The translations under genes and the position numbers were made by a program. From a virus (lineage: Duplodnaviria; Caudoviricetes): 64,000 nucleotides of DNA. The notes under the pieces were generated by a model that saw only the letters and a list, made by a program, of their open reading frames with translations, did no database searches and had not been told where the DNA came from. Shown here in pieces: positions 19,152-57,563 of the stretch; within the stretch, counting starts at the first letter, position 1; each line of letters opens with the position of its first letter. The DNA is taken from IMG/VR virus record IMGVR_UViG_2706795618_000001, positions 13,833 to 77,832 of that record; one strand, given 5' to 3'.

Positions 19152-19213
19152 TTGCGGCCTTTTCGTCTAGTGAGCTATAACTGTCTTACCGGGGCAGGTA
19201 CCAGACCAGCCCC
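19152..19213 (+). promoter_or_regulatory. Repeat cassette copy 1 (promoter + operator + 5' hairpin)
   Basis: TTGCGG-N18-TATAAC, GTCTAGTGAGCTA, GGGGC-A-GGT-ACCAG-ACC-A-GCCCC. Confidence 0.85.
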
Positions 19214-19233
19214 CGAGCCCCGAGGGGGACGTT

Positions 19234-19473
19234 ATGGGTCAGACGGTCAAGATCGCCAGCCGCGCGCGTCGGCACGGTGGGGGTCGTGCCCGGATCATCG
19301 CCGCGATGCGGCACTGCCAAGATCCCCAGGTCTCCGAGGACCGGCCGGGTGTCGTGGAATTCCGCGGCCTGGACGACCACGGCAAGGGGCTGGTGATCCT
19401 GGTCCGCGACGGCGACCGTCGGCCGAACGAGCTGGTGGTGTTCCACGTCCACCCGGTCGCGTTCTACCGCTGA
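19234..19473 (+). CDS. Hypothetical protein, possible BrnT/RelE-like toxin fold
   Basis: ARRHG...G.DDHG..L.I...VFHVHP pattern. Confidence 0.5.
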   Translation: MGQTVKIASRARRHGGGRARIIAAMRHCQDPQVSEDRPGVVEFRGLDDHGKGLVILVRDGDRRPNELVVFHVHPVAFYR

Positions 19474-19485
19474 CCGGCCCAGGCC

Positions 19486-19514
19486 AACACCCCGGGGATT
19501 CCCCGGGGTGTTTT
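19486..19514 (+). terminator. Intrinsic terminator
   Basis: 12-bp stem AACACCCCGGGG/CCCCGGGGTGTT followed by Ts. Confidence 0.85.
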
Positions 19515-19555
19515 GCTATCCGGCGCTGGACATTTCCACGCATTTGGCCAGCTCG

Positions 19556-19617
19556 TTGCGGGTAGGCCGTCTAGTGAGCTATAAACGAGTCACCGGGGCA
19601 GGTAGCAGACCAGCCCC
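19556..19617 (+). promoter_or_regulatory. Repeat cassette copy 2
   Basis: TTGCGG-N18-TATAAA, operator, hairpin with AGCAG loop. Confidence 0.85.
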
Positions 19618-19639
19618 CCGAGGGGAAGGAACCCCCACC

Positions 19640-20587
19640 ATGGCCGGAACAACCACCTACATCGCCACCGACCCCAATGGCACCGAGCACACCCGCGCCA
19701 GCCGAACGATGGCCTACACCCACGCCCTGCTGGTCAGCGACGACGACGCCCGCACGTGGTACGCCCGCAGCTGGCACACCAGCGAGCGGACCGCCAACGA
19801 CGCCCTGAGCTCCAACGGCAGCTACTCACCCAGCGGAATCCGTCGCCTGGTGGAGGTCACCGAGAAGCCCAAGGGCCGCCAGCCCAAGGCCAAGCTGACC
19901 CCGCTGTCAGCGGTGGGTTCGACGGGTGACGCGATCCTGGACGCGGCCGTCGCAGCCGCTGCCGACGACGCCACCACCGAGGGGGAGGAGACCCCACAGC
20001 AGCGCCGCAACCGCAAGGCGCGGGAACGGCGCGCGGCCAAAAAGCAGGCCACGGGGGAGGTGGTGGCCACGGTGACGCCGGAACCCACGGTCGAGCAGGA
20101 GGCCGAGGTCCGGGTGGTGTCATTCGCTGACGACTGGGACGCGGCCCCCGTCGGTGCCCGGCCGGTCGAGGACGACGTGCCCGCGGCCGACGACGGCCAG
20201 GAGGTGGCCGACCTGGAGAGCCAGCCCGAGGAACCGGAGGCCGACGACACCACCACGGTGGAGCCGGTAGAGGAGGGGCAGGCCGACGACACGGAGAGCC
20301 AGCCGGCCGAACCGAGCGCGTCGGAGGACGACCAGCCGGAAGTGGTGGAGGTCGAGGACCAGCCGGAACCCGAGACGGCCGACACCGACGAGGCCATCAG
20401 CGCCGCGCTGGAGGTCACCCCCGAGCAGATCGAGGAGGCCAAGGCCCAGGTGGTCAAGGGGGAGCGGTGCCCGGGATACAAGATGGCGGTTCCCGACAAC
20501 GGCAAGCGTCGCGCGGAGTGCCCGGTCTGCGGTCACAGCGTCAAGCGCTACGCCAAGTCGGGGTTGCTGGGGTCGCATCGCGCGTAG
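19640..20587 (+). CDS. Acidic low-complexity protein with C-terminal Cys/His domain
   Basis: ATG after RBS GGAAGGA; D/E-rich middle; ERCPGY...CPVCGHSVKRY...GSH. Confidence 0.8.
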   Translation: MAGTTTYIATDPNGTEHTRASRTMAYTHALLVSDDDARTWYARSWHTSERTANDALSSNGSYSPSGIRRLVEVTEKPKGRQPKAKLTPLSAVGSTGDAILDAAVAAAADDATTEGEETPQQRRNRKARERRAAKKQATGEVVATVTPEPTVEQEAEVRVVSFADDWDAAPVGARPVEDDVPAADDGQEVADLESQPEEPEADDTTTVEPVEEGQADDTESQPAEPSASEDDQPEVVEVEDQPEPETADTDEAISAALEVTPEQIEEAKAQVVKGERCPGYKMAVPDNGKRRAECPVCGHSVKRYAKSGLLGSHRA

Positions 20588-20589
20588 GC

Positions 20590-20643
20590 CCGACGTAGAA
20601 CGGGGCCGGTGGGGTAACGACCACCGGCCCCGTTCTACGTCGG
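20590..20643. terminator. 23-bp perfect inverted repeat (probable terminator)
   Basis: CCGACGTAGAACGGGGCCGGTGG / exact reverse complement, 8-nt loop. Confidence 0.75.
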
Positions 20644-20667
20644 CACGCTGGTCATCGCCGCTGGTAG

Positions 20668-20730
20668 TTGCGGCACGGCCGTCTAGTGAGCTATACCTTT
20701 CGGTACCGGGGCAGGTGACGGACCAGCCCC
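20668..20730 (+). promoter_or_regulatory. Repeat cassette copy 3
   Basis: TTGCGG-N18-TATACC, operator, hairpin with GACGG loop. Confidence 0.85.
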
Positions 20731-20750
20731 CAAACCCGAGAGGGGTACCA

Positions 20751-21257
20751 ATGTCCAGGACCGCCGACCTGCCAGCCAGCACCGCCAGCAAGATGGCCGC
20801 TACGCACGCGGTCGGCCTGTCCTACTGGGCTGACCACCCGACGGCCAGCCACGTGTGGGCGGTGGACCAGTACCAGCAGGTCCATGTGGTCAAGATCAGC
20901 GCCACTCACGGCACCGCCCAGCATGTGTGCAACCGCTATGCCGACCGCAACCACACCAGCGGGTGCGACGGGCACGACCGGGTGATGTCGTACTCCGACC
21001 CCGCGGCCATCGCGCGGGAGTTGGGCATCACGCGAGCAGCCGCCATCATGGCGGTCTGCCAGTTCGTCGCCGTGTCGGAGGTGTGGCAGCCAGCCGAGGA
21101 ACCGGCCCGGCCGCTGACCCTGGTACCGGGGGAGCGGTGCCCCGGGTACGGCCAAGTGGTGGACGGCGACGGCCACCGGGCCAAGTGCCCGCACTGCGGC
21201 CGTAGCGTCAAGCGGTACGCCACCGGCAAGCTGGGCAGCCACCGAGTCGCTGCCTGA
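20751..21257 (+). CDS. Hypothetical protein with the same C-terminal Cys/His domain as 19640-20587
   Basis: RBS GAGAGGGG; ERCPGY...CPHCGRSVKRY...GSH. Confidence 0.8.
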   Translation: MSRTADLPASTASKMAATHAVGLSYWADHPTASHVWAVDQYQQVHVVKISATHGTAQHVCNRYADRNHTSGCDGHDRVMSYSDPAAIARELGITRAAAIMAVCQFVAVSEVWQPAEEPARPLTLVPGERCPGYGQVVDGDGHRAKCPHCGRSVKRYATGKLGSHRVAA

Positions 21258-21266
21258 CCACCACCC

Positions 21267-21290
21267 CGACCCCCGGCACCCCGGGGGTCG
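21267..21290 (+). terminator. Hairpin after cassette 3
   Basis: 10-bp stem CGACCCCCGG/CCGGGGGTCG. Confidence 0.6.
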
Positions 21291-21408
21291 CCTGCTATCG
21301 GGGTGTTGGCAGCGCTGCAGCGACGCCTGCCGGACCGGCACGCGGTCGCGCGGGTAACCACACCCCGCCACCAATTCCGACCGTGCAGGCGGTCATTCTT
21401 GCTGGTAG

Positions 21409-21470
21409 TTGCGTACGGGCCGTCTAGTGAGCTATAACGGTCTTACCGGGGCAGGTACCAGACCAGCCCC
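21409..21470 (+). promoter_or_regulatory. Repeat cassette copy 4
   Basis: TTGCGT-N18-TATAAC, operator, hairpin with ACCAG loop. Confidence 0.85.
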
Positions 21471-21488
21471 CACCGGAGAGGACACAAC

Positions 21489-21704
21489 ATGGACACCATC
21501 ACCGTCTGGACCCTGATCATCGTCGGCGACAACGAGGACAGCACGTCCGTGTCGCTGCACCCCAGCGAGGCCGCAGCGCTGGGCCACCTCCGCGATTTGT
21601 ACGACATCCCGGAATGGGTCGAGGACGTGGTGGATGCGGTCAACAACGCCCCCGGGGATGAGGTGCGGTTTGTGATGCTCGACAGTCACGACCACTACTG
21701 CTAA
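21489..21704 (+). CDS. Small acidic hypothetical protein
   Basis: RBS GGAGAGGA; sole gene of cassette 4. Confidence 0.75.
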   Translation: MDTITVWTLIIVGDNEDSTSVSLHPSEAAALGHLRDLYDIPEWVEDVVDAVNNAPGDEVRFVMLDSHDHYC

Positions 21705-21717
21705 GCCCCCACCTGGC

Positions 21718-21747
21718 CGAACCCCCGCGCAACCGTGCGGGGGTTCG
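21718..21747 (+). terminator. Hairpin after cassette 4
   Basis: 13-bp stem CGAACCCCCGCGC/GTGCGGGGGTTCG. Confidence 0.7.
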
Positions 21748-21751
21748 CTCG

Positions 21752-21812
21752 TTGTGGCCCTTGGGTGAACCGAGCTACGGTCACCACCGACGGGCAGGCA
21801 TTAGGCCAGCCC
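21752..21812 (+). promoter_or_regulatory. Repeat cassette copy 5 (left operator half lost; compensatory change in hairpin)
   Basis: TTGTGG-N18-TACGGT; GGGC-A-GGC-ATTAG-GCC-A-GCCC. Confidence 0.75.
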
Positions 21813-21834
21813 CCAACCCGATAGGGGAATTGTC

Positions 21835-22107
21835 ATGTCAGACAACGTCACCGCCACACCTGGCAACTCCGACGGCGATTACGGAAAGTTTGCCGTTTTG
21901 TTCTCCCACGCCTCCAGCGCGGTCTATGACGAGCTGGTCACCACGCACCGGTTCTCCAGCGATGTCGGCGCGCGGGTGTTCGGCGACAAGATCGCCTACG
22001 TCCAGGGGGTGGAGTACGAAGTGATGGAGCTGACGGCCGACGGGTGGCGTAGCGCGCGCGGGGAATCGCCCGTCGAGGTGATCCGTCGTCGTTGGCAGGG
22101 TCGGTGA
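21835..22107 (+). CDS. Hypothetical protein
   Basis: RBS AGGGGAA. Confidence 0.7.
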   Translation: MSDNVTATPGNSDGDYGKFAVLFSHASSAVYDELVTTHRFSSDVGARVFGDKIAYVQGVEYEVMELTADGWRSARGESPVEVIRRRWQGR

Positions 22108-22370
22108 GCGGCCGCCGGCCGCGGGGCGGCGTGATGGTGCACCCCAAGGTCGAGGACTTTGCCAGCCAAAGTGAGGTGCTGGTCCAGTACACCGACGACG
22201 GGCCGGATTCGGTGGGGCTCCGCTCGTTCTTCGCGTACTGGCTGGCCGGGAACATCGGGCCGCGGAAAGATCAGTACGGGGTTCACGGCCAGGTGTTCGT
22301 CGTGCCCCCGGCGACATTCGCTGCTCGCCAGGCCATTCTGGGCGGGACCGTACGGGAATGGGTACCCTGA
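22104..22370 (+). CDS. Hypothetical protein
   Basis: GTGA overlap; start uncertain. Confidence 0.55.
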   Translation: MSGRRPRGGVMVHPKVEDFASQSEVLVQYTDDGPDSVGLRSFFAYWLAGNIGPRKDQYGVHGQVFVVPPATFAARQAILGGTVREWVP

Positions 22371-22500
22371 CCCGGGCCGTCTGCTCTGTCGTCGCGTCCG
22401 TCAATAGTGGGCATTCGACGCGCCAGGCTGTGGTTCGATTGGCCCCCAACACGGTGGGGCGCACCGCCAACACCGACAGAACGAGAGGTGCGGGTGGTTC

Positions 22501-23022
22501 GTGAAGTGTCCAGATTGCGGGTCGGCCATGACATATGGCGATGGCGACGGCGTGCACTACACCGAGGGGTACTGGTGGTGCCCGACGTGCGGCAACGAGA
22601 TTCACCCCGACGACGACGGAACAGAGGAGAAGGAAGCGCGGGCGATGACGCCAGCAGAATTCCGCATTACGCGCGACTACCTGGGCCTGCCACCCGTGTG
22701 GCTGGCCGAGCGGCTCAATGTGCGTGAGCGCACGCTGTCGCGCTGGGAGCACGGCGGTGCCCCCATCCCCCCGGGCGTGATGGAGGAGTTGGCCGCCATC
22801 GCGGAACTGACGGCGCGGCGGGTGGATTCGCTGGTCGAGGAGCTGGAGGCCGGCGGTGAGCTCGTGACGTACCGGACGGATGAGGACTACCGGTCGTCGG
22901 GGATCGCCGACGGGCGGGTGTTCCCGGCATCGTGGCACCGCGCCATCGCGGCCCGCGTGATGGATGCGTGCCCCAACGTGGTGGTGGTGTACAGCGCCGA
23001 CCAGGCGGCTGACGCCAGCTAG
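22501..23022 (+). CDS. Zn-ribbon plus XRE-type HTH protein
   Basis: CPDC/CPTC; MTPAEFRITRDYLGL..WLAERLNV.ERT..RWE HTH. Confidence 0.75.
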   Translation: MKCPDCGSAMTYGDGDGVHYTEGYWWCPTCGNEIHPDDDGTEEKEARAMTPAEFRITRDYLGLPPVWLAERLNVRERTLSRWEHGGAPIPPGVMEELAAIAELTARRVDSLVEELEAGGELVTYRTDEDYRSSGIADGRVFPASWHRAIAARVMDACPNVVVVYSADQAADAS

Positions 23023-23039
23023 CACCACGGCGTGATGTC

Positions 23040-23064
23040 GGCCCCCACCGGTATGGTGGGGGCC
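23040..23064 (+). terminator. Hairpin after cassette 5
   Basis: 10-bp stem GGCCCCCACC/GGTGGGGGCC. Confidence 0.65.
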
Positions 23065-23107
23065 GTTCGTCGTACTGGGAGCCTTTATCCACGTTTGGCC
23101 TGGTCAC

Positions 23108-23167
23108 TTGTGGCCGGATGTCTAGTGAGCTATAACTGACATCACCGGGCAGGTACCAGACCAGCCC
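23108..23167 (+). promoter_or_regulatory. Repeat cassette copy 6
   Basis: TTGTGG-N17-TATAAC, operator, hairpin with ACCAG loop. Confidence 0.85.
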
Positions 23168-23190
23168 ACAACCCTGAGAGAGGGACCAGC

Positions 23191-24390
23191 ATGTCGAACA
23201 CCACCCTTCCCCCCGTCCCCACCCGTACGCTGCGCGGCGCGAACATCGCCGATCTGGTCGGCCTGTTGCAGCTCCAGCACCGCCAGAAGGTGGACGTGGT
23301 GGTGCCGGTGTCCACCCTGGCCATGCGCGGTGGCCTGTTGCAGTTCCCGATGCTCGACCCCGTGGTGGATGAGAGCGGCGTGACCGACATCGCCGGTCAG
23401 TACCGCCGCACCGACACGGTGGACCAGCAGCTGGGCCAGCTGTTCGACATCCCGGTCCGCTACGTGCGGACGTTGGCCGACAGCTACACCGAGCTGTTGG
23501 ATACCAACGTCAACATGTGGGCCGAGAAGGAGGGGGAGTCCAGCAAGCCGCGCCGGGTGCTGGTGCGGATGCTGTACGGCCAGGACGACGACCACCCCGG
23601 CACCAACGGCCTGGTCCGCGCGATCCTTTCGAGCCGGTACGGGATCCGGGACAACCTCGACACCGTGTTGTCGGTCCTCGACGGTATGCGGGAGGGCGGC
23701 CTGGGAGCCGACAACATCCGCGGGGCCGACCTGACCGACGACCGGCTGTGGTTGCGGGTCCACGCCCCAGAGCTGGCCGTCAACGCGGGCAACCTGGCCA
23801 ACGGGTACCGGTCGCCGTTCACCGGTCAGGAAGCCAAGGATCTGCCGTTGGTCCACGCCGGCATCATCGTGGAGAACAGCGAGACAGGTGGCGGGGCGCT
23901 GAAGGTGACGCCCGAGCTGATCATGCAGGTGTGCATGAACGGGATGAAGATCAACACCGCCGCGATGCGCCGGGTCCACCTGGGCACGAAACTCGATGAG
24001 GGCCAGATCAAGTGGAGCACCGCGACGGTGGACGCGGCCAACGAGCTGACAAAGCAGCAGATCAAGGACGCGGTGTCGAGCTTCATGACCAAGGAGTTCG
24101 TGGAATCGACTGTGGCCAAGCTGAACGAGGCCGCGGGGGTGGAGATTGAAGATCCCACCCAAACGGTCGAGGTGGTGGCCAAGAAGCTGAGCTACAGCGA
24201 CGAGGTGGCCAAGGGCATCCTGGGCCACTTCATGGCCAGCGTGGTGCCGACCGGAGGTGGTCTGAAGTACACGGCCGGTCACATGATGCACGCGGTGACC
24301 AGCTACTGCCAGGTGATCGAGGACGTGGACAAGGCCAACGAGGTCGGGGCCACGGGCGTGGAGGCCATGCTGATCGCCGCGGGCCGGTAG
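23191..24390 (+). CDS. DUF932-like domain protein
   Basis: VRAILSSRY..RDN, NSETGGGALKV, VCMNGM motifs. Confidence 0.75.
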   Translation: MSNTTLPPVPTRTLRGANIADLVGLLQLQHRQKVDVVVPVSTLAMRGGLLQFPMLDPVVDESGVTDIAGQYRRTDTVDQQLGQLFDIPVRYVRTLADSYTELLDTNVNMWAEKEGESSKPRRVLVRMLYGQDDDHPGTNGLVRAILSSRYGIRDNLDTVLSVLDGMREGGLGADNIRGADLTDDRLWLRVHAPELAVNAGNLANGYRSPFTGQEAKDLPLVHAGIIVENSETGGGALKVTPELIMQVCMNGMKINTAAMRRVHLGTKLDEGQIKWSTATVDAANELTKQQIKDAVSSFMTKEFVESTVAKLNEAAGVEIEDPTQTVEVVAKKLSYSDEVAKGILGHFMASVVPTGGGLKYTAGHMMHAVTSYCQVIEDVDKANEVGATGVEAMLIAAGR

Positions 24391-24406
24391 CCCCAGCGCG
24401 AAATAC

Positions 24407-24441
24407 GAAGAACCCCCGGGTGATTGACCCGGGGGTTCTTC
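24407..24441. terminator. Probable bidirectional terminator between DUF932 gene and integrase
   Basis: 14-bp perfect stem GAAGAACCCCCGGG/CCCGGGGGTTCTTC. Confidence 0.8.
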
Positions 24442-24514
24442 CACCTTTACCCAACACCACCAGCGGGGGTTAGCGCGCCCACCCGCAGCGTGTTGGTTGG
24501 TGATCGTACAGCAG

Positions 24515-25612
24515 CTAGGCCGGTGTCTCGGTGCACGGCGTGACGATGGCCGTCAGGTTGGCCAGCACCACGTCGATGTGCTGTTCCACCGGGCCGTCCA
24601 CGCAGACCACCGGGGGGTCGGCCAGCGGGGACGTGCTGGCCAACATGCCGACCAACACCGGACACATGAACCCGACACACGCCACCACGGCGGCGATCAC
24701 CCCCGGAACGCCCTGGGGCCGCCTCCTGGCGCTGTCGGCCGCGGCTTCCATCGCGGCGCGTGTCTCGGCATCGTCCACGGCGGTGTACCGCTCGGTGACC
24801 GCGACGTTGGCGTGGCCCAGGAGCGTCTGCACAGCGCGCAGGTTGCGCGTGCCGCGATAGGCGCGGGTAGCGAACCTATGACGGAGGGTGTGCATGGTCC
24901 ACCCGGCAGGCATGGCCTCAGCGACCATCTTGCCGACCCACCTAGGCGATAGGTGGCCGTTGTCGTCGCCGGGAAACAGGTACCCCTCCTCCCCGTAGGC
25001 CGCCATCTCCGGGCTGTGCCCGGGCGCGCCCTGGGCGATCAGGTCGGCCAGCTCGTAGGTGATGGGCACGACCCGTTCCCGGTTGCCCTTGCCGTGGATG
25101 AGCAGCTGGGGTCCGTCGAACCCCTCGCGGAGGTCGCGAGTGTGGACCACCGCCACCTCGGCGCGCCGCAGACCCACCTCCCCGGCCAACCGCATCATCA
25201 GGGCGACCCGTGGTCCCGCGTCCGTCAGGGCCTTGTCCCAGACGCGATCGGGGGCCGGTCGGGGCGACGGTTTGTCCGGTTTGATCGTCGGAAGTTCGGT
25301 CGCCGGGTTACTCGTCAGGTAGCCCTCCTTGTGTGCCCAGGCAAAGAATTGGGCGGCGCTGTTGCGATACCCTCGGCGCGTTTCTATACGCCACTGTGAC
25401 TGGCTAGCAAACCATCGCTTAAGTGAATCGCTGGTAACGGAATTGGGATCGTGGCTAAGTTCGCGCGACATCCGGCGAACATGATTAAGCCTCGTGGTAA
25501 TGGTGCTCTGAGGCCGCCCCGCGGCGCGCAATTCCGCTGTGTAGCCGTCGATTAGAGGCACCCACCGGTGAGGCACCGGGGTGGGGGCTGGCCCACTTTT
25601 GGGCCGTGTCAT
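24515..25612 (-). CDS. int: Tyrosine integrase lacking the N-terminal arm-binding domain
   Basis: GLRRAEV, HGKGNRER, HTLRHRFAT, LLGHA...TERY catalytic motifs; ATG 25612 preferred. Confidence 0.95.
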   Translation of the reverse strand: MTRPKSGPAPTPVPHRWVPLIDGYTAELRAAGRPQSTITTRLNHVRRMSRELSHDPNSVTSDSLKRWFASQSQWRIETRRGYRNSAAQFFAWAHKEGYLTSNPATELPTIKPDKPSPRPAPDRVWDKALTDAGPRVALMMRLAGEVGLRRAEVAVVHTRDLREGFDGPQLLIHGKGNRERVVPITYELADLIAQGAPGHSPEMAAYGEEGYLFPGDDNGHLSPRWVGKMVAEAMPAGWTMHTLRHRFATRAYRGTRNLRAVQTLLGHANVAVTERYTAVDDAETRAAMEAAADSARRRPQGVPGVIAAVVACVGFMCPVLVGMLASTSPLADPPVVCVDGPVEQHIDVVLANLTAIVTPCTETPA

Positions 25613-25743
25613 GGGTATCACAGCGGCAAGATTAGGCCCACTTACGTTTCCGTAGAAATTAGCTTCAAGATCGTTACCGTACCGTGACGAAACACGCTGT
25701 GGCAAAGGTAATCCCACGTCAGGCGGGGTGCTATGGGCGGCAG

Positions 25744-26133: not shown

Positions 26134-26351
26134 GTCGCGTACTTTAACGCGCTTTCGCGCGGCTTAGCAATTGTTCTAAGCCAAGTCACACGCCATAGAT
26201 ACCGCCTCAATTAGCTGCAACCAGCAAACTCCACACCACACGGCACAGGCCGCGACCACAGCAAAGGTCGCGGCCTGTGGTGTTTTCGCGTGTACACGCG
26301 AAAACGCGGAGTGTCGCACTTGCGGGCCTATGCGAATATGCGTAAAGATCC
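26134..26351. promoter_or_regulatory. Divergent repressor/early control region with palindromes
   Basis: GGCTTAG-N8-CTAAGCC 26161-26182; 14-bp IR 26244-26279; 24-bp perfect palindrome 26282-26305. Confidence 0.7.
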
Positions 26352-26977: not shown

Positions 26978-27026
26978 CGGCTCCAGCACCTCACCCAACC
27001 CAGTACCACCCAAGGAGCACCACCCA

Positions 27027-34805: not shown

Positions 34806-34807
34806 CA

Positions 34808-35992: not shown

Positions 35993-36198
35993 GCGCGCCA
36001 CAGCCGGGGAGCCAGGACCACCACAAGGTGGAGCTGATCGCCATCGGCCCCGACACCGACGACATCGCCCTGGCGGTACTGGTCCACGCCGACGGCCGGG
36101 TCCGGTTCAACGGCACAGGTGCTCACGACCGCGAGTGGATGGCCGAGACGTTGGAACGCATCGTCGCGGCGCTGAGGACTGAGCCCAATGGCAAGTGA
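35989..36198 (+). CDS. Small hypothetical protein
   Basis: ATGA overlap. Confidence 0.6.
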   Translation: MSAPQPGSQDHHKVELIAIGPDTDDIALAVLVHADGRVRFNGTGAHDREWMAETLERIVAALRTEPNGK

Positions 36199-36346
36199 CG
36201 ACAACATGATCGCCGTCTACGAGGCCCAGGAATCGCGGTCGGCCCGTGACGCCATGACGGAGATGGACCGCGCGGCGTTCGAGCCCGACCACGGCGACGA
36301 CGAGGTACAGGCGGCGTTGGCCCGCCGTCGGGGGAGGGGGTGGTGA
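36188..36346 (+). CDS. Small hypothetical protein
   Basis: Open frame MASDDNMIAVYEAQ..., fills the gap. Confidence 0.5.
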   Translation: MASDDNMIAVYEAQESRSARDAMTEMDRAAFEPDHGDDEVQAALARRRGRGW

Positions 36347-36347
36347 T

Positions 36348-36491
36348 GTGGTCAAACCCTCGACGCCAGAACAGAAGGCGCGATACCTGGCCAACCCGCG
36401 CCAATGCATCGACTGCGGTGGCAAGCCGTCGGCCGGTCGGCCGCGGTGCGACGACTGCCACAAGAAATGGGAACGGAGGGGTCGGCGATGA
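36348..36491 (+). CDS. Small Zn-finger protein
   Basis: CIDC...RPRCDDC; fills the gap. Confidence 0.5.
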   Translation: MVKPSTPEQKARYLANPRQCIDCGGKPSAGRPRCDDCHKKWERRGRR

Positions 36492-36856
36492 GTGACATGC
36501 TGGCCGATCTGCGTGCGGTGCTCGACAGTCAGGAGTACCGCGCGGCAAAGGAATTCGCCGACAAGTACCTGGTGGACGGCGCGCTGTTGGTCACCCCGGC
36601 CCAGCACGCCGCGATCCACCGGGCCGCGGCCGCGACGGACGACCGGTTACGTCGCTGGTGGGATCCCAGCTACAGCCCGTCGCCGCTGGTCAACATTCCG
36701 GTGGTGGTGGTCAAGGACGACGGCCTGGCCCACCCCATCGGCAACGGCCGCTACGCCGTGGTGAAGCAAAACGGGATCTATGTGTTCACCCCAGAGCCGT
36801 GGGCCGTCGGAGCGATGCCGGTGGCAAGCCGGGCGCGGGAGGACGGAAATGTCTGA
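36488..36856 (+). CDS. Hypothetical protein
   Basis: ATGA overlap. Confidence 0.65.
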   Translation: MSDMLADLRAVLDSQEYRAAKEFADKYLVDGALLVTPAQHAAIHRAAAATDDRLRRWWDPSYSPSPLVNIPVVVVKDDGLAHPIGNGRYAVVKQNGIYVFTPEPWAVGAMPVASRAREDGNV

Positions 36857-51500: not shown

Positions 51501-51604
51501 GCGTCGTAATCGTCACCCCCGCACAGGCGCTGATCATCACGGCCATTGTGGTCGGCGTGATCGCCATCGGTGCCGTGGTGGTGTATTGGAGGGCCGGTAG
51601 GTGA
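51497..51604 (+). CDS. Very small membrane protein
   Basis: Single TM helix; overlaps on both sides. Confidence 0.5.
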   Translation: MSVVIVTPAQALIITAIVVGVIAIGAVVVYWRAGR

Positions 51605-52650
51605 CGGCGCGCCGAGAGATGCCCAACGGCGACATCGTGGAGTGCGCGGGGCCGGGACGGTGCCGACACTGCGACAACCCGGAGTACCAGAGCTGCCGCT
51701 GCTGCGGTGAGGACGTGCTGCCGTTCGTCGCGGGAAGCTACCCCGAACACCAGCTGTGCGACGACTGCGGCCGGGGCAAATGCACGCGCTGCATCAACGA
51801 GGTTCGCGCCATCTGGGGCGGCAAGCAGCCGCAACGCAACCCGGAACAGGACGTGATCGACGCTATCGACGCCCTGGTGGATGACCAGCTGGCCGGCGGC
51901 CCACGCGACGACTACAGCAAGCCCTACACAGAGAAGTGCCCCCAGTGCGGTGGCAGCTGGCACGGGCTCAAACGCGGCGATTGCCCTGGGGCAACGGGAA
52001 TCGAGGGCAACCCCGAGGAGGGGGCCAAGCGCGACACCGACGTGTGGGCACGCCAAGAGGACACCGACAACCCCATGACGCGGGCGGCCCGCAACATCGG
52101 ACAGGCAAGGTCGGTACTGGACCAGATTCTGGCGGCCGATCCGGGCGTACCGCCCAGTGGATTCCGGGTCGGGCGAGCAGTCGGGGAGCGGCGGCCGCCG
52201 TACAACCCCATCGACAACCGCCACCCCTCACGCCAGCAGTTCGCGATCAGCGACGCGATGGCTCTGCACTGGGATGACCTGCCGCCCATCAGAAGCGGCC
52301 CGATCCTGCATCCTCCCGGGTCGCCCCGGCCTGGGGTGATGACGTTGGACATCGTGACGGTGCAGTGCGCGGTGTTCCCTTGCACCATCCCGTTCCAAGA
52401 TGCCTGGGAGTTCCGGGTGGCCACCAGCCGAGCAGGCGACATCCAGCAGGTTGGAATGGTGATCACCACTGAGTTCCTGCGCGCGGGCTACCGGGGCACG
52501 CGGTTCTCAACGATCCCGTTGCGCCACTTGGGTGTCGAGGCTGAGCTGGTGTTGCTCCACGGCGGCACCGTGGTGATGGACGTGCCGCACCCGGGTGACT
52601 CCGAGCGGTCGGTCCGTATGGGATTCCTGGGGGCGGGGGGTATGCCGTGA
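51601..52650 (+). CDS. Multidomain hypothetical protein with Zn-binding motifs
   Basis: DVIDAIDALVD...CPQCG..WHG motif. Confidence 0.6.
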   Translation: MTARREMPNGDIVECAGPGRCRHCDNPEYQSCRCCGEDVLPFVAGSYPEHQLCDDCGRGKCTRCINEVRAIWGGKQPQRNPEQDVIDAIDALVDDQLAGGPRDDYSKPYTEKCPQCGGSWHGLKRGDCPGATGIEGNPEEGAKRDTDVWARQEDTDNPMTRAARNIGQARSVLDQILAADPGVPPSGFRVGRAVGERRPPYNPIDNRHPSRQQFAISDAMALHWDDLPPIRSGPILHPPGSPRPGVMTLDIVTVQCAVFPCTIPFQDAWEFRVATSRAGDIQQVGMVITTEFLRAGYRGTRFSTIPLRHLGVEAELVLLHGGTVVMDVPHPGDSERSVRMGFLGAGGMP

Positions 52651-52916
52651 AGCTGTCACGTCGAGAGCGCGCCGTCCTGGGCGCGCTGGCCCGCCAGGGT
52701 TCGTGGCCCCAGCGCACCACCACGGGGTGGACCGGTGAAGCGGCCCAAGCCGATTGGGTGCCCGACAGTCGGAAGGTGTTGGCCCAGCTGGCGTCTCAGG
52801 GGCTGGTGGTGGATGAGTCGCGGCCGTCGATGGTGGCGACGGGTCAGCGGGTGGTGATGACCAAGGCCAGCCGGTACAGCATCACCGACCGGGGCCGCGC
52901 GGCGCTGGGCCGGTGA
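52647..52916 (+). CDS. Winged-helix-like hypothetical protein
   Basis: LAQLASQGLV...YSITDRGR. Confidence 0.6.
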   Translation: MKLSRRERAVLGALARQGSWPQRTTTGWTGEAAQADWVPDSRKVLAQLASQGLVVDESRPSMVATGQRVVMTKASRYSITDRGRAALGR

Positions 52917-53051
52917 TGGCCCATACCCCCGTCACCGTCGAGCTGCTGCGACGACTACGCGCCCAGCAGGGGAGACCGCTACACCAGGCCCGCCACCTCC
53001 ACCTGGTCCCACCGCTGGCCGACGCTGCAAGCTCGACGTTTCAGCAGGTGG

Positions 53052-53111
53052 TTGCGGGTGGGCCGTCTAGTGAGCTATAAATCACCCATCGGGCAGGTAG
53101 CAGACCAGCCC
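53052..53111 (+). promoter_or_regulatory. Repeat cassette copy 7
   Basis: TTGCGG-N18-TATAAA, operator, hairpin with AGCAG loop. Confidence 0.85.
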
Positions 53112-53128
53112 CGACCCCGGAGGGACCG

Positions 53129-53911
53129 ATGACCACCATGACGACCCGCAAGCCCACCTACAAGTCGGAGATCCTGGGCACCGTCACCCTGAACCTGTAC
53201 ACCGATCCCCACCCCGGCCGTGACGCCAAGGACCGGGTGCCGGTGCCGTGTGCCAAGTGCGGTGGTACCGGTCGGATCGAGGCGTTCGGGTACATCGACG
53301 GTGGCCGCTGCTGGGACTGCAACGGGCACGGCCAGAGCAGCATCAGCGTCGGCACCGCCCGCAAGTACGCCCGCAGCGAGGCCTTCGCGCTGGAGTACGG
53401 CGACCAGATCGACGCCTACTGGCGCGACATCGAGGAGAAGAACCGGGTTGCCCGGGAAGCCGCGGAATGGGCAGCCGCCTGGGACGAGGCCCACACCGAG
53501 AACGCGCGCCGCGCCACCCTGAACCAGACGGTGATGGGCCAGGAGGGCGACAAGCTGGCCGACATCGAGGTGACGGTGGAGGTAGCCAAGAGCATCGAGG
53601 TGCCGGGGTACCGGTACGGCACCGACTGGAAGCGGTTCGTGGTGCTCAAGACGGCCGACGGCCAGGTGGCCAAGGTGTTCGGTACCGCGGAGTGCCTGTG
53701 GAAGGTGGAGCGCGGCGACCGCGCGGTGATCCGGCGCGCGACGGTCAAGGGTCACGACGAGTACCAGGGCCAGAAGCAGACCGAGCTGACCCGGGTCAAG
53801 CTGGAGAAGATCGAGCCCTACGAGTGCCCCGATTGCGGGGAGGGCCACGACGGCACGGTGACCGGTACCGAGCGGTGCCCGTCGTGTGAGAACGAGCCTG
53901 CCGACGACTGA
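53129..53911 (+). CDS. Zn-finger (CxxCxGxG) plus OB-fold-like protein
   Basis: CAKCGGTG...CWDCNGHG; TVKGHDEYQGQKQTELTR. Confidence 0.75.
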   Translation: MTTMTTRKPTYKSEILGTVTLNLYTDPHPGRDAKDRVPVPCAKCGGTGRIEAFGYIDGGRCWDCNGHGQSSISVGTARKYARSEAFALEYGDQIDAYWRDIEEKNRVAREAAEWAAAWDEAHTENARRATLNQTVMGQEGDKLADIEVTVEVAKSIEVPGYRYGTDWKRFVVLKTADGQVAKVFGTAECLWKVERGDRAVIRRATVKGHDEYQGQKQTELTRVKLEKIEPYECPDCGEGHDGTVTGTERCPSCENEPADD

Positions 53912-53925
53912 CCGACACCACCCGA

Positions 53926-53952
53926 CAAACCCCCCACCCGCTGGGGGGTTTG
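53926..53952 (+). terminator. Intrinsic terminator
   Basis: 11-bp stem CAAACCCCCCA/TGGGGGGTTTG. Confidence 0.75.
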
Positions 53953-53983
53953 TTGCTGGCCCGGCTGGAACTACCCTCACCAC

Positions 53984-54424
53984 ATGGGTCGAACCGTCGC
54001 CGTGATCGCCGCCGCTGCCGCGATATTGGCCGGCTGCGGCCAGCAGCCCACCGCCGCCCCCTCCACCGTCACGGTGACTGAGACCCGCACCGTCACAGCA
54101 GCACCCACCGCAGAACCCGCTGCCGCCCCCGCCGCACCATCGGGCGACACCTACCGGGGTAACGGGGTGTATGCCGTCGGCCAGCACCCGCACAGCGGCC
54201 TCAAGGCTGCGATGCCACCCGGGCGGTACACCGTGAGCCTGATGGACGACCAGGCGTTCGGTACGTGGGCGCGCTGCTCCGACGTGCTGTGCGGTTCCAG
54301 CTACCCCGACAACGTGATCGGCGACGGGATCGCCTCCGGGGTGGGGTACTCCGAGGTGGTGGAGGTGCTGCCGTCCGACGTGGCGGTGTACCTGTTCAAC
54401 GTCCGGTTCACCTCCGTCACGTAG
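53984..54424 (+). CDS. Lipoprotein
   Basis: Lipobox LAGC; Thr/Ala/Pro linker; TACCCT 6 nt before ATG. Confidence 0.8.
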   Translation: MGRTVAVIAAAAAILAGCGQQPTAAPSTVTVTETRTVTAAPTAEPAAAPAAPSGDTYRGNGVYAVGQHPHSGLKAAMPPGRYTVSLMDDQAFGTWARCSDVLCGSSYPDNVIGDGIASGVGYSEVVEVLPSDVAVYLFNVRFTSVT

Positions 54425-54535
54425 CGGTACCGCCCACACCCCTGCCGTCGCTGCCGCCAGACGGCCACCCACTAGTCGGGACCACCACAACCACTAACCG
54501 GCAGAATCGCGCCTGCACGGCCTTTGTGCAGGTGG

Positions 54536-54595
54536 TTGTGGCCGCATGGTCTAGTGAGCTATAACCGTCACAACGGGCAGGTATGAGACCAGCCC
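54536..54595 (+). promoter_or_regulatory. Repeat cassette copy 8
   Basis: TTGTGG-N18-TATAAC, operator, hairpin with ATGAG loop. Confidence 0.85.
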
Positions 54596-54614
54596 CCAAC
54601 CCCCAGGGGTAGCG

Positions 54615-54992
54615 ATGACCACCACCACCACCGCCATGACGTGGAAGTACGACAGCGAGATGTCGCGGGCGTACTGGGCCGACACCGAGCTGTACACCTT
54701 CCGCATCCGCAAGGCGACCAACGCCAAGCGCGACGGCTGGGAGGTGGCAATCAAGCACACCCTGACCACCGCCGGGGTGCGTCACAGCCTGGGCCAGCCC
54801 GACATCGCGGCCGAGGTGATCGACGGCCTGAAGATGGGCAAGCGCGTGGTGGCCCACTTCCTCGACATCGTGCCCGACGGCGAGCCCGTCAGCCCCCACA
54901 CCGCCAAGCGCGCGCTGGAGCAGGCGTTGAGCCGGGTCTACGACGAGGACAGCCGCGCCATCGTCGCGGCCTACGACGCCAGCACCCGCTGA
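54615..54992 (+). CDS. Hypothetical protein
   Basis: First gene of cassette 8. Confidence 0.75.
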   Translation: MTTTTTAMTWKYDSEMSRAYWADTELYTFRIRKATNAKRDGWEVAIKHTLTTAGVRHSLGQPDIAAEVIDGLKMGKRVVAHFLDIVPDGEPVSPHTAKRALEQALSRVYDEDSRAIVAAYDASTR

Positions 54993-55006
54993 CGCGGGGC
55001 CGACCG

Positions 55007-55411
55007 ATGAGCACCACCGACCCCTACACCCACGACCGCCAAGCCTGCAGCGACTGCGACCGTCAGCGCCGCCTGTGGGGGCCAGACAGCCACTGCGACC
55101 GTACCCACGACTTCCGCGAGGGCCAGCTGGTCACCATCGGCCGCGGCACCCGGCCGTGGACTATCACCTGGGCCACCGGCTCCCTGGTCCAGGTGTCGCG
55201 TGAGATTCCCGCCAGATACTTCGGCACGCGACTGCACAGCCGGACGTTCGGCAAGGGCGGCCGCCGGCCCATCACTGACCTGCACCTGGTTGAGCCCCAA
55301 CGGGTTCCGTTGGCCGACCGCAAGCGGTCCATCGACGGCCAGCTGGTGTGCCCGACCTGCGGGGGAATCGGGCACACCAGCTGTGTATGCAAGGGGCCGC
55401 GTATGGCGTGA
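55007..55411 (+). CDS. Hypothetical protein with Cys motifs
   Basis: CSDC, CPTCGG.GH..C.C. Confidence 0.6.
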   Translation: MSTTDPYTHDRQACSDCDRQRRLWGPDSHCDRTHDFREGQLVTIGRGTRPWTITWATGSLVQVSREIPARYFGTRLHSRTFGKGGRRPITDLHLVEPQRVPLADRKRSIDGQLVCPTCGGIGHTSCVCKGPRMA

Positions 55412-55470
55412 CGTGTCCGACCACCCGGCAACAATCCACGAAACCGCACCACTTGAACGAAAGACACCGC

Positions 55471-55833
55471 ATGACAACAACATCCATCTCCCTCAGCGTG
55501 ACCGTCGGGCTGCCCTGGGACAGCCACATGGGCCGGTCAATCCAGCTCAATCGGTACGGCCACCACCCCCAGCTGGTGGGCCACATCCGACAGCTGCCCG
55601 TCGGGGACCGCCGCGGCCACGACCGATGGACCCTGGAGCTGACCCCCTACGTGAAGGACCGGCTCAACAGCCAGCAGCGGCTGAGCATCGAGAGCATCGC
55701 CCAGCTGTGGGGCGACATGGAGCAGGCCCGCAACGGTGCCTACGTGGTGGCGGGGATGCTGCTCGCGTGGTGGCTGGCCAATCAGCTGCCGCGCAATACG
55801 TTCGATGACCTGGAGACGGCGGTGGCCCAGTGA
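55471..55833 (+). CDS. Hypothetical protein, paralog of next gene
   Basis: W..MEQ.R.GA...GM.L.WW...LPR. Confidence 0.7.
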   Translation: MTTTSISLSVTVGLPWDSHMGRSIQLNRYGHHPQLVGHIRQLPVGDRRGHDRWTLELTPYVKDRLNSQQRLSIESIAQLWGDMEQARNGAYVVAGMLLAWWLANQLPRNTFDDLETAVAQ

Positions 55834-56285
55834 TCGCCGTAGAGATCGCCGCGACGGCCAAGCCCACCGTGAAGATGGCCTACGTGTTCCACCCCGGCAC
55901 GGGGCCGTGGCGCGTGGGCAACGTGGTCCAGGACGGAGAGGGTCGGTGGCAGTTCCAGCCGCTGCCGCCATGGCGTGACCAGCTGCACGACTACCAGCGG
56001 GTGGCGCTGGGCCACGTCATCGACGGCGGTTGGGACACCTTGGAGCAGATGCGATCCGGCGCGTCAGCCGCCGTCGGCATGGTGCTGGGCTGGTGGATGT
56101 CGGGTCTGCTGCCGCGTGACGCCCTGGGCCACATGAAGTCCTACCTGACGGGCGGGCTGATCCCAACGGCGTTGGCCTGCCCCCACGGCCAGCACCAGGT
56201 GTGGTGCGGGGAGTGCCACCCGCCGTTCCGCATTGAGGACTTCATGGACGCGGAGGACTGCGACGACCCAGAGGACTACCGATGA
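55830..56285 (+). CDS. Hypothetical protein, paralog of previous gene
   Basis: Same motif plus C-terminal CPHG...CGECH. Confidence 0.7.
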   Translation: MIAVEIAATAKPTVKMAYVFHPGTGPWRVGNVVQDGEGRWQFQPLPPWRDQLHDYQRVALGHVIDGGWDTLEQMRSGASAAVGMVLGWWMSGLLPRDALGHMKSYLTGGLIPTALACPHGQHQVWCGECHPPFRIEDFMDAEDCDDPEDYR

Positions 56286-56623
56286 TCGTCAACCACAGCG
56301 TGCAGGCCCGGGAGGTCCGCGTGGGGGATCTGGTGGCCCCCAACGGTGCCGACGACGCACCGCTTATCGCCCAGGTGCAGACCCACCGGCTGGAGCGCGG
56401 CGACGCCATCTATACCGCCGTCTTCCAGCTGGACCTGGAGGTCGAGGACCGGCCCCGGGTGCTGGAGTTCATCGTCCCGGCCCACTTCCCCGTGATGGTG
56501 GGCCGACCGGCCAACGACGGGTCGCCGGCACAACAGGTCACCGAGCTGTGCGACCGGCTGGGGCTGGAGTGGCGCTACCTCGACGGTGGAGGGCTGGCGA
56601 TCACTCCATGGTCGGCGCGATGA
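56282..56623 (+). CDS. Hypothetical protein
   Basis: ATGA overlaps. Confidence 0.6.
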   Translation: MIVNHSVQAREVRVGDLVAPNGADDAPLIAQVQTHRLERGDAIYTAVFQLDLEVEDRPRVLEFIVPAHFPVMVGRPANDGSPAQQVTELCDRLGLEWRYLDGGGLAITPWSAR

Positions 56624-57048
56624 ACGCCGACCAGCTGGGGGAGATCCAGCAGACCATGTTGCACGACATGCGGCTGTACCAAGGCAATCACTTTGGCAGC
56701 CAACGGAAGTGGGGGAGCGCGGAGCGAAAGGTGTTGGCCAGCCTCCACGCTCGTGGCCTGGTCACGTCGGAGTACCGGTACGCCAGCCTGACCCCGGAGG
56801 GGCAGCGGGTGGCCGACGCCATCATCGCCGAGGTGTGGAAGCGCGAGCCCATCCCAGCGGGCGACACCATCGTGCTGGTGACGCCGTGCGGCCCACACGC
56901 CACCAAGGCGTTGTGTGGTGGGTGCAGCGACGACCGAGGGGTGCGGTGGGTGTGCCATCTGCTGGGCCACAGCGACGAGGCCGACACCCTGGCGTGCGCT
57001 CACCGACACGCTGCCGGGCACGGCCAAAACCACGACCGCTATAACTGA
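56620..57048 (+). CDS. Winged-helix-like plus Cys/His protein
   Basis: VLASLHARGLV...SLTPEG. Confidence 0.6.
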   Translation: MNADQLGEIQQTMLHDMRLYQGNHFGSQRKWGSAERKVLASLHARGLVTSEYRYASLTPEGQRVADAIIAEVWKREPIPAGDTIVLVTPCGPHATKALCGGCSDDRGVRWVCHLLGHSDEADTLACAHRHAAGHGQNHDRYN

Positions 57049-57075
57049 TTCACCGGGGCAGGTACCGACCAGCCC
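57040..57075 (+). promoter_or_regulatory. Repeat cassette copy 9 (-10 box and hairpin only; no operator or clear -35)
   Basis: TATAAC then GGGGC-A-GGT-ACCG-ACC-A-GCCC. Confidence 0.7.
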
Positions 57076-57097
57076 GACGAACCCCGAAGGGGGCGGC

Positions 57098-57472
57098 ATG
57101 GCGACAAGGCAACCCATGATTGCGCTGCTCGCGGCGCTGACCGTCGCGCTGGTCGGCTGCTCGACCGCCGGCCAAACCCCACCTACCCCGACGAGCACCA
57201 CCACGGCGACCAGCACGACGGCCCCCGTTGCCCTCACTGACCAGGACCGGGTGTTCCTCGACCAGCTCCAGAGCGACGAGGCGATGTGGCAGCGTCAGTT
57301 CAGCTTTGTGCCAACAGATGTGCTGACGGGGGTGGGCCACAGGGCGTGTACCGAGCTTCGGTCTGATTGGGATGGCGCGATACAGGAGGCCGTTGAATCC
57401 GGTATCGACCGGGACGCGGTGGTGGCACTGTTGGACGCTGCAATCGTCGCCTACTGCCCCGACCTGCAATAG
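57098..57472 (+). CDS. DUF732-like lipoprotein
   Basis: Lipobox LVGC; D..FL..L, GH.AC, AAIVAYCP. Confidence 0.8.
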   Translation: MATRQPMIALLAALTVALVGCSTAGQTPPTPTSTTTATSTTAPVALTDQDRVFLDQLQSDEAMWQRQFSFVPTDVLTGVGHRACTELRSDWDGAIQEAVESGIDRDAVVALLDAAIVAYCPDLQ

Positions 57473-57501
57473 CCGCTTGCGCTGGACAAACATGCAGATA
57501 G

Positions 57502-57563
57502 TTGCATGTTAAAAGTCTAGTGAGCTATAAACGAGTCACCGGGGCAGGTACTGGACCAGCCCC
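57502..57563 (+). promoter_or_regulatory. Repeat cassette copy 10
   Basis: TTGCAT-N18-TATAAA, operator, hairpin with ACTGG loop. Confidence 0.85.

What the first reader, a model, noticed from the sequence alone, without database searches (positions are those of the whole stretch)
19191..57563. Conserved 5' RNA hairpin with invariant A-A mismatch and a compensatory base change in ten transcripts
Seen: about 8-10 nt downstream of each -10 box is (G)GGGC-A-GGT-loop-ACC-A-GCCC(C). The loop varies (ACCAG, AGCAG, GACGG, ACCAG, ATTAG, ACCAG, AGCAG, ATGAG, ACCG, ACTGG) while the stems stay fixed. Copy 5 (21792-21812) swaps GGT/ACC for GGC/GCC, a compensatory pair. The hairpin persists in the two copies that lost the operator. 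Inference: a selected RNA structure at the extreme 5' end of early mRNAs, acting as a stabiliser against RNase J/E, a protein-binding site (the A-A internal loop) or a put/boxB-like antitermination signal.
Basis: partly seen in the sequence, partly recalled or inferred. Interest (0 to 1): 0.75.

Follow-up and report, generated by a model that had tools for sequence, protein, structure and literature searches.

The report
Aca2-linked leader RNA hairpin regulon
Ten accessory-gene units of this Cluster Y mycobacteriophage start with the same small folded RNA leader. That leader travels with an Aca2-type regulator gene in other phages too, so it is probably a large example of a recently published DNA-plus-RNA switch, not a new kind of element.

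Summary
Ten exact sense-strand copies exist (none expected by chance), each about 20 nt before a start codon. Nine follow a promoter-like -35/-10 pair; eight of those carry the operator.

The window belongs to a Cluster Y mycobacteriophage, 98% identical to Cracklewink. About 85 copies from relatives fold the same way. Two stem pairs covary (U-A/C-G/G-C and G-C/U-A), and loops are 4-7 nt.

The A-A mismatch is strongly kept but not invariant: C.A, C-G and 1x2 loops also occur. Copy 9 sits 6 nt after a stop codon, so it is intercistronic.

The protein at window 22501-23022 belongs to the Aca2 family by profile and fold. It lies in the copy-5 unit. Its homologues, fetched by protein alone, all had the hairpin nearby, from a Mycolicibacterium prophage to a Kitasatospora prophage. 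Three multi-copy contigs fetched by the hairpin alone all carry the protein.

Published Aca2 binds a promoter repeat as DNA and two 5'-UTR hairpins as RNA to block translation. That is my best reading (0.55). A passive 5' stabiliser is the main rival.

Binding, TSS positions and identity with the published 'actino-motif' are untested. This scan has noted Aca2-type leader cassettes before on other DNA.

The parts
19188..19233 (+). Leader c1: predicted +1 near 19188, hairpin HP1 19191-19213, small SD hairpin HP2, start codon 19234 (BrnT-like toxin gene)
19592..19639 (+). Leader c2: HP1 core 19596-19616, start codon 19640
20705..20750 (+). Leader c3: HP1 core 20709-20729, HP2, start codon 20751 (DUF7457 protein)
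21445..21488 (+). Leader c4: HP1 core 21449-21469, start codon 21489
21788..21834 (+). Leader c5: HP1 core 21792-21812 in the GGC/GCC form. The promoter is TTGTGG-N18-TACGGT and has no operator. This leader heads the unit that contains the Aca2-like gene.
23143..23190 (+). Leader c6: HP1 core 23147-23167, start codon 23191 (399-aa phrog_1362 protein)
53087..53128 (+). Leader c7: HP1 core 53091-53111, start codon 53129
54571..54614 (+). Leader c8: HP1 core 54575-54595, start codon 54615
57049..57097 (+). Leader c9: HP1 core 57056-57075 with a 4-nt loop. It is intercistronic: the upstream ORF stops at 57046-57048. Start codon 57098 (DUF732 protein).
57538..57584 (+). Leader c10: HP1 core 57542-57562, start codon 57585
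22501..23022 (+). Aca2-family gene: 173 aa, with an N-terminal zinc ribbon, an XRE-type HTH and an Aca2-type C-terminal domain. It is the candidate reader of the hairpin.
18530..18781 (+). Small 83-aa DNA-binding protein (phrog_686, weak likeness to sIHF/mIHF). The gene looks leaderless and lies behind the perfect palindromic operator. It is the second candidate regulator.
18506..18521 (+). Perfect palindromic operator (GTCTAG-N4-CTAGAC)
19165..19181 (+). Operator overlapping the -10 of c1. The same element lies at 19569, 20681, 21422, 23120, 53065, 54549 and 57515.

Best explanation
The hairpin (HP1) and the small Shine-Dalgarno hairpin after it (HP2) form a two-hairpin mRNA leader. The phage's own Aca2-family helix-turn-helix protein (window 22501-23022) most likely reads this leader. 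In the published Aca2 mechanism, the protein dimer binds the folded leader RNA and blocks the ribosome-binding site. Here that would turn down translation of about ten accessory-gene units at once, including genes inside operons that carry only the RNA signal. The palindromic operator over the -10 box adds transcriptional control, by the same protein or by the small 83-aa DNA-binding protein. Shown here: the RNA fold is under selection, the protein belongs to the Aca2 family, and the two travel together. Inferred: binding, the effect on translation, and the TSS positions.
For: 1. Structure under selection. In 39 distinct hairpins, 98% of cells are paired. The covariation score is 0.22 against 0.075 in shuffles (0 of 500 reach it) and at most 0.07 in slid controls. 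The closing pair of the inner stem is C-G 24, U-A 12, G-C 2. An outer-stem pair is G-C 31, U-A 5. No one-sided change occurs at the closing pair in 61 Cluster Y copies. U-A/C-G switches occur inside homologous gene groups.
2. Constraint beyond pairing. Seven stem pairs, the last loop base (G) and the 3' A of the mismatch are fixed or nearly so. Loops and flanks are scrambled, and natural stabilities range from -9.4 to -19.3 kcal/mol. This points to a sequence-specific reader.
3. Geometry as published for Aca motifs (PMC13551039). An inverted repeat overlaps the promoter. The RNA motif starts 3-4 nt after the predicted +1. The distance to the start codon is fixed at 16-27 nt. RNA-only copies lie between genes.
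4. Two hairpins. HP2 (CCC-N2-8-GGG at the SD) occurs in 8 of 10 cassette genes against 5 of 76 other genes. It folds in 9 of 10 leaders.
5. Reader candidate. The family profile hits solved Aca2 chains (7ezy 1.5e-8, also 8w35, 7vjo, 7b5j) over their whole length. Six of 8 members hit PF08965. The AlphaFold model (pLDDT 84.6) matches Aca2 chains with TM 0.78-0.83.
6. Co-occurrence. All four other Cluster Y genomes have the gene, and Cluster K Adephagia does not. Five homologue loci fetched by protein alone all carry the hairpin. Three multi-copy hairpin contigs fetched by DNA pattern alone all carry the gene. On a 1,057-bp metagenome contig, an operator-promoter and a hairpin head the operon holding the gene, and a second such cassette follows it.
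Against: No binding or expression data exist, and no TSS is mapped. The operator (GTCTAG type) and the hairpin arms share no clear half-site, whereas ZF40 IR1 and IR2 share a TTCG core (PMC6765145). The protein alone scores below the Pfam cut-off (19.4 against 23.8 bits). In this genome the gene lies about 700 nt downstream of copy 5, after a 130-nt gap. One hairpin-bearing phage type (G001/G005, single copy, incomplete contigs) shows no homologue. The cargo genes are not known anti-CRISPRs. Co-occurrence within one phage lineage can also reflect shared descent.
Confidence: 0.55

Rival explanations
1. The hairpin is a passive 5' cap or insulator. It protects short accessory mRNAs from 5'-end-dependent decay (RNase E, RNase J, RppH) and keeps the ribosome site in a constant context. 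No dedicated protein reads it.
For: The predicted +1 lies 3-4 nt before the stem in nine window copies. That estimate is anchored by genes that look leaderless (start codon 7-8 nt after the -10) behind the same promoter type. Loop sequence and length are free, and the outermost pair is optional. The units end in GC-rich hairpins. The single-stranded parts are U-poor, and mycobacterial RNase E cuts RN|CNU (PMC10641625). 5'-terminal stem-loops stabilise mRNA in E. coli (Emory 1992, cited in PMC10641625).
Against: No G.U or other tolerated change appears in seven stem pairs across about 40 distinct copies, although natural copies differ by 10 kcal/mol. The last loop base is invariant. Intercistronic copies are not 5'-terminal. 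The 5' tails are 7-8 nt in Typha-type phages. This reading does not explain the link with the Aca2-like gene.
Confidence: 0.2
2. The element acts as double-stranded DNA: a second operator downstream of the promoter, bound by an HTH dimer as a roadblock.
For: It is a near-palindrome placed just after the promoter. The phage encodes several HTH proteins. From my own recollection, not checked here: MqsA-type proteins tolerate variable half-site spacing, and phiC31 repressor sites lie near early promoters.
Against: Both arms change together at the covarying positions, with no mixed sites; independent half-sites would give about 37% mixed. U.G-type variants break the DNA symmetry. Spacing varies from 4 to 7 nt. 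Some copies lie inside operons with no promoter. The asymmetric features (A opposite A, purine...G loop ends) always face the sense strand. ZF40 IR2, the counterpart, was not bound as DNA in vitro (PMC6765145).
Confidence: 0.08
3. The hairpin is an RNA processing or barrier signal. It directs or blocks a host or phage ribonuclease, so that each cistron becomes a separate stable mRNA.
For: Intercistronic copies lie 6-31 nt after stop codons. C-rich single-stranded flanks suit mycobacterial RNase E (PMC10641625). The first cassette encodes a BrnT-like ribonuclease toxin.
Against: A 7-9-bp stem is short for RNase III. Most copies already sit at a predicted 5' end. No reads are available to show processed ends.
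Confidence: 0.07
4. The hairpin is a put/boxB-like antitermination signal that modifies RNA polymerase.
For: It is an RNA hairpin just downstream of promoters.
Against: The loop is not conserved, whereas boxB is read through its loop. There are 10-14 copies per genome, each tied to a start codon. Each unit has its own promoter and terminator, which makes read-through pointless.
Confidence: 0.03

Closest known systems
Aca2 of Pectobacterium phage ZF40 and the Aca2 5'-UTR RNA motifs ('proteo-' and 'actino-' motifs; PMC6765145, PMC13551039, Birkholz et al. Nature 2024)
   Same: An Aca2-fold HTH protein is present. An inverted repeat overlaps the promoter. A two-hairpin RNA motif starts right after the TSS and reaches the ribosome site. 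The distance to the start codon is fixed. Extra RNA-only copies lie between genes. One regulator serves several operons.
   Different: There are 10-14 units per genome, against up to three reported. The operator and the hairpin share no core half-site. Bipper-type phages fuse a zinc ribbon to the protein. The cargo is not known to be anti-CRISPR, and from my own recollection (not checked here) the laboratory host M. smegmatis mc2155 has no CRISPR. I could not check identity with the published actino-motif.
Cluster K mycobacteriophage ESAS + SAS (PMC3203893, PMC11373665)
   Same: A repeated operator-containing SigA-like promoter plus a conserved element next to the start codon. It sits in front of accessory genes in the same two genome zones, left of the integrase and at the right end. 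Its function is unknown.
   Different: The sequences are unrelated. Adephagia P91 has no leader hairpin and no Aca2-like gene. Pope et al. found little support for an RNA hairpin in ESAS, whereas here covariation supports one.
5'-terminal stabiliser stem-loops (ompA type; Emory, Bouvet and Belasco 1992)
   Same: The hairpin lies within a few nt of the predicted 5' end of short mRNAs.
   Different: Stabilisers need no fixed sequence. Here the stem sequence is fixed, and copies also occur inside operons.
Lambda boxB/nut and HK022 put
   Same: A phage RNA hairpin downstream of promoters.
   Different: The loop is not conserved, the copy number is high, and the element is tied to start codons rather than to terminators.

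Membership tests
Aca2-type DNA/RNA control module | An Aca2/YdiL-family HTH protein is encoded in the element | tested here: met
   The family profile hits solved Aca2 7ezy at 1.5e-8, plus 8w35, 7vjo and 7b5j. Six of 8 members hit PF08965. Foldseek TM is 0.78-0.83 to Aca2 chains. The protein alone is below the Pfam cut-off.
Aca2-type DNA/RNA control module | An inverted repeat overlaps the promoter | tested here: met
   GTCTAG-N4-CTA(G/T)A lies across the spacer and -10 in eight units, and a perfect palindrome lies at 18506. Binding was not tested.
Aca2-type DNA/RNA control module | The RNA motif starts directly after the TSS and keeps a conserved distance to the start codon | tested here: inconclusive
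   The geometry fits: 9-10 nt from the -10, and 16-27 nt to the start codon. The TSS is only predicted, from genes that look leaderless behind the same promoter type.
Aca2-type DNA/RNA control module | Two hairpins, the second covering the ribosome-binding site | tested here: met
   HP1 plus HP2 appear in the MFE of 9 of 10 leaders. The HP2 motif occurs in 8/10 cassette genes against 5/76 others. It is also present in the Kitasatospora and metagenome relatives.
Aca2-type DNA/RNA control module | Motif and protein co-occur across genomes | tested here: met
   Protein-first: 5 of 5 loci carry the hairpin. Hairpin-first: 3 of 3 multi-copy contigs carry the gene. One single-copy type on incomplete contigs lacks it.
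Aca2-type DNA/RNA control module | The protein binds the RNA and represses translation | not testable with these tools
   This needs EMSA and reporter assays.
Aca2-type DNA/RNA control module | The sequence matches the published actino-motif model | not testable with these tools
   The Nature 2024 paper is not held. The texts I could read give no sequence. No Rfam family matches.
Aca2-type DNA/RNA control module | The DNA repeat and the RNA repeat share a core half-site (as in ZF40 IR1/IR2) | tested here: not met
   Operator half-site GTCTAG against hairpin arm GGGC-A-GGU.
Cluster K SAS/ESAS | 13-nt SAS consensus 3-9 nt before the start codon, and a 17-bp ESAS repeat | tested here: not met
   The leaders here lack the SAS consensus. 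The Adephagia P91 region, read for comparison, shows a different layout.
boxB/nut or put antitermination RNAs | A conserved loop read by the protein or RNAP, one or two sites per operon | tested here: not met
   Loop sequence and length vary. There are 10-14 copies per genome.
5'-terminal stabiliser hairpin | The stem lies within about 2-4 nt of the 5' end, with no sequence requirement | tested here: inconclusive
   The predicted tail is 3-4 nt in nine copies. Copy 9 and several relatives are intercistronic, and the stem sequence is fixed.

The most novel reading that the evidence does not exclude
Aca2-family proteins in actinophages act as genome-wide post-transcriptional governors, not as local anti-CRISPR autoregulators. 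One protein would read 10-14 copies of a two-hairpin leader, including RNA-only copies that tune single genes inside operons. The hairpin would then flag dozens of unknown accessory genes, possibly anti-defence genes, in mycobacteriophages and in Mycolicibacterium and Streptomycetaceae prophages.
Probability: 0.35. Interest if true: 0.65.

Novelty: new member of a known kind. Interest (0 to 1): 0.5.

Why it matters
If the reading is right, Cluster Y mycobacteriophages hold one of the largest Aca2-type regulons seen, in phages isolated on M. smegmatis. The hairpin becomes a cheap marker for co-regulated accessory genes, almost all of unknown function. The finding also gives a concrete, testable model (an HTH protein that reads leader RNA) for the repeated start-associated motifs of mycobacteriophages, which have lacked a mechanism since 2011. 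Adephagia itself has no homologue of this protein.

Tried and rejected
RNA evidence: no RNA holder is listed for this stretch.

A promoter-anchored scan of IMG/VR was too unspecific.

Scans of GTDB genomes gave nothing with the promoter pattern.

Rfam gave only a tRNA, and weak chance hits at a terminator.

Folding energies of whole leaders are not unusual against shuffles (z from -0.1 to -1.75), so stability alone is no evidence.

Model R1, built on Cluster Y copies, scores the GGUC/GACC variants poorly. I aligned those by hand-picked references instead.

I considered pairing of the 3' arm with the 16S rRNA 3' end and rejected it by reasoning: that rRNA stretch is inside helix 45 and is on the wrong side of the anti-SD.

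An intrinsic terminator role is unlikely because there is no U-tract.

The 83-aa protein is not Aca2-like.

The Nature 2024 Aca2 paper could not be read.
Full report
WHAT IS THERE. None is expected in shuffled sequence, and there are no further copies in the whole 77,832-bp genome. The genome is a Cluster Y mycobacteriophage, 98% identical to Cracklewink, genus Bippervirus.

Eight copies share a full unit:
- a -35-like TTGCGG;
- an 18-nt spacer;
- a -10-like TATAAC overlapped by a palindromic operator;
- 9-10 nt;
- the hairpin HP1;
- a C-rich linker;
- a G-rich Shine-Dalgarno region;
- a start codon 16-27 nt after the hairpin.

Two genes behind the same promoter type look leaderless: the 83-aa gene at 18530, and a gene in Typha, Hilltopfarm and Nadezda. 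Their start codons lie 7-8 nt after the -10. By analogy, the predicted +1 in the window copies lies 3-4 nt before the stem.

Copy 5 has its own promoter (TTGTGG-N18-TACGGT) and no operator. Copy 9 begins 6 nt after the stop codon of the upstream gene, so it is intercistronic. Typha-type relatives have three further promoterless, intercistronic loci.

The units sit in two zones: between the lysis genes and the integrase, and at the right end. They drive accessory genes: a BrnT-like toxin, a DUF732 protein, a DUF7457 protein and unknowns. Whether these genes are 'early' is unknown.

IS IT AN RNA STRUCTURE? I collected 61 copies from five Cluster Y genomes and two short metagenome contigs.
- RNAalifold independently predicts the proposed hairpin.
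- Seven pairs never vary.
- The closing pair of the inner stem is U-A in 45 copies, C-G in 15 and broken in one. None has a one-sided change.
- U-A/C-G switches occur inside groups of homologous downstream genes.

More distant relatives added further forms: an outer-stem G-C to U-A change, a U.G-type variant, and 4-bp inner stems that read GGGC/GCCC in one element and GGGG/CCCC in another. On 39 distinct sequences, 98% of cells pair. The covariation score is 0.22, against 0.075 in shuffles (0 of 500 reach it) and at most 0.07 when partners are slid. Loops are 4-7 nt.

Independent DNA half-sites would give many mixed sites, and none is seen. So intrastrand pairing is what is kept.

Folding energy by itself proves nothing. 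The leaders are no more stable than shuffles.

The A-A mismatch is strongly conserved, from mycobacteriophages to a Kitasatospora prophage. It is not obligatory: C.A, a C-G pair and 1x2 loops occur.

CONSTRAINT BEYOND PAIRING. Loops and flanks are scrambled. Yet the stem letters, the last loop base (always G in the 40 distinct Cluster Y copies) and the 3' A are fixed. Natural copies span -9.4 to -19.3 kcal/mol. A single G.U would therefore be tolerated energetically, but none occurs in the seven invariant pairs of the Cluster Y copies. This argues for a sequence-specific reader.

A SECOND HAIRPIN. After HP1 comes a small stem, CCC-N2-8-GGG, that holds part of the Shine-Dalgarno sequence. It is present before 8 of 10 cassette genes and only 5 of 76 other genes in Cracklewink. 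It folds in 9 of 10 leaders. It recurs with different letters in distant relatives.

Earlier notes of this scan pointed me to Aca2. This HTH protein binds a promoter repeat as DNA and two 5'-UTR hairpins as RNA to block translation (PMC6765145, PMC13551039). I tested that lead on this genome.

The 173-aa protein at 22501-23022 has a zinc ribbon, an HTH and a further domain.
- Alone it scores 19.4 bits on PF08965, below the cut-off of 23.8.
- Six of eight family members hit PF08965.
- The family profile finds four solved Aca2 structures as its best hits, over their whole length.
- The AlphaFold model (pLDDT 84.6) superposes on Aca2 chains with TM 0.78-0.83.

The gene lies in the unit headed by copy 5. 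In Typha, Hilltopfarm, Nadezda and the metagenome contig, its unit is also headed by a GGC/GCC-type hairpin.

CO-OCCURRENCE.
- All four other Cluster Y phages have the gene. Cluster K Adephagia has neither the gene nor the hairpin.
- I fetched five homologues by protein sequence alone: a 79.6-kb phage contig, a Mycolicibacterium prophage, a 4.3-kb contig, a Kitasatospora kifunensis prophage and a metagenome contig. All carry the hairpin before genes, usually behind an operator-promoter of a related but different sequence.
- Conversely, an IMG/VR scan for the GGC/GCC hairpin found three further multi-copy contigs, and all three hold the gene.
- One single-copy phage type, on incomplete contigs, does not hold it.

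HOW IT MOST LIKELY WORKS. The geometry matches what is described for Aca motifs: a DNA repeat on the promoter, an RNA motif right after the TSS, a fixed start-codon distance, and RNA-only copies between genes (PMC13551039). I therefore rate Aca2-type translational repression of a ten-unit regulon as the best explanation (0.55).

The steps that are inferred are binding, the effect on translation, and the TSS positions. Weak points:
- the operator and the hairpin share no half-site;
- the Pfam score of the protein alone is sub-threshold;
- the cargo is not known to be anti-defence.

Rivals, in order: a passive 5' stabiliser or insulator (0.2), a DNA operator (0.08), an RNase signal (0.07) and antitermination (0.03).

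NOVELTY. The kind of element is published. I could not compare the hairpin with the published 'actino-motif', because no sequence is given in any text I could read and Rfam has no match. What appears new is the setting and the scale: Cluster Y mycobacteriophages with 10-14 units per genome, where up to three have been reported. No paper in the library describes Cluster Y repeats. This scan has already noted Aca2-type leader cassettes on other actinophage DNA, so this is a further member, not a first sighting.

Noticed in passing
window 19218-19227 and the equivalent spots in the other leaders: A second small hairpin (CCC-N2-8-GGG) holds part of the Shine-Dalgarno sequence. It occurs in 8/10 cassette genes against 5/76 other genes in Cracklewink.
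   Followed up: partly
window 18506-18781: A perfect 16-bp palindromic operator lies directly before a gene that looks leaderless (start codon 8 nt after the -10). The 83-aa product weakly resembles the actinobacterial nucleoid proteins sIHF/mIHF (4itq at 3e-4; phrog_686). It may be the operator's reader..
   Followed up: partly
window 22501-23022; Typha 36183-36711; L200: The zinc ribbon is fused to the Aca2-like domain in Bipper-type phages. In Typha-type phages and the metagenome contig it is a separate ORF in another frame just upstream.
   Followed up: partly
window 21792-21812; Typha 36013, Hilltopfarm 36131, Nadezda 36078, L200: The unit that holds the Aca2-like gene always carries the GGC/GCC form of the hairpin. 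In Cluster Y it has a promoter without the operator, so the regulator's own leader may be tuned differently.
   Followed up: partly
Typha 70493, Hilltopfarm 71182, Nadezda 69716 (record coordinates): The same operator-promoter drives a gene with its start codon 7 nt after the -10 and no hairpin.
   Followed up: no
L230, L251, L270, L277 (one Chloroflexota MAG): A 23-nt stretch appears inside a repeat on four contigs of an unrelated Chloroflexota genome, with no cassette context. Its last 22 nt are identical to one metagenomic phage hairpin. This is probably a coincidental GC-rich palindromic repeat.
   Followed up: no
L328 2380-2420, L329 2535-2575, L383: Operators in distant relatives differ from the GTCTAG type (for example a GTCCTAA...TTAGGAC palindrome) but keep an outer GTC...GAC. 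The hairpin stays nearly the same.
   Followed up: no
window 19059-19132: A tRNA gene (tRNA-Met in the Cracklewink annotation) lies immediately upstream of the first cassette.
   Followed up: no
window 20583-20650: A long GC-rich hairpin after the second cassette gene looks like a terminator. It attracts spurious microRNA-family hits in Rfam.
   Followed up: no
literature, PMC12699233: A Cluster K4 lysogen is reported to be immune to the Cluster Y phage Nadezda. This hints at shared regulators between the clusters.
   Followed up: no
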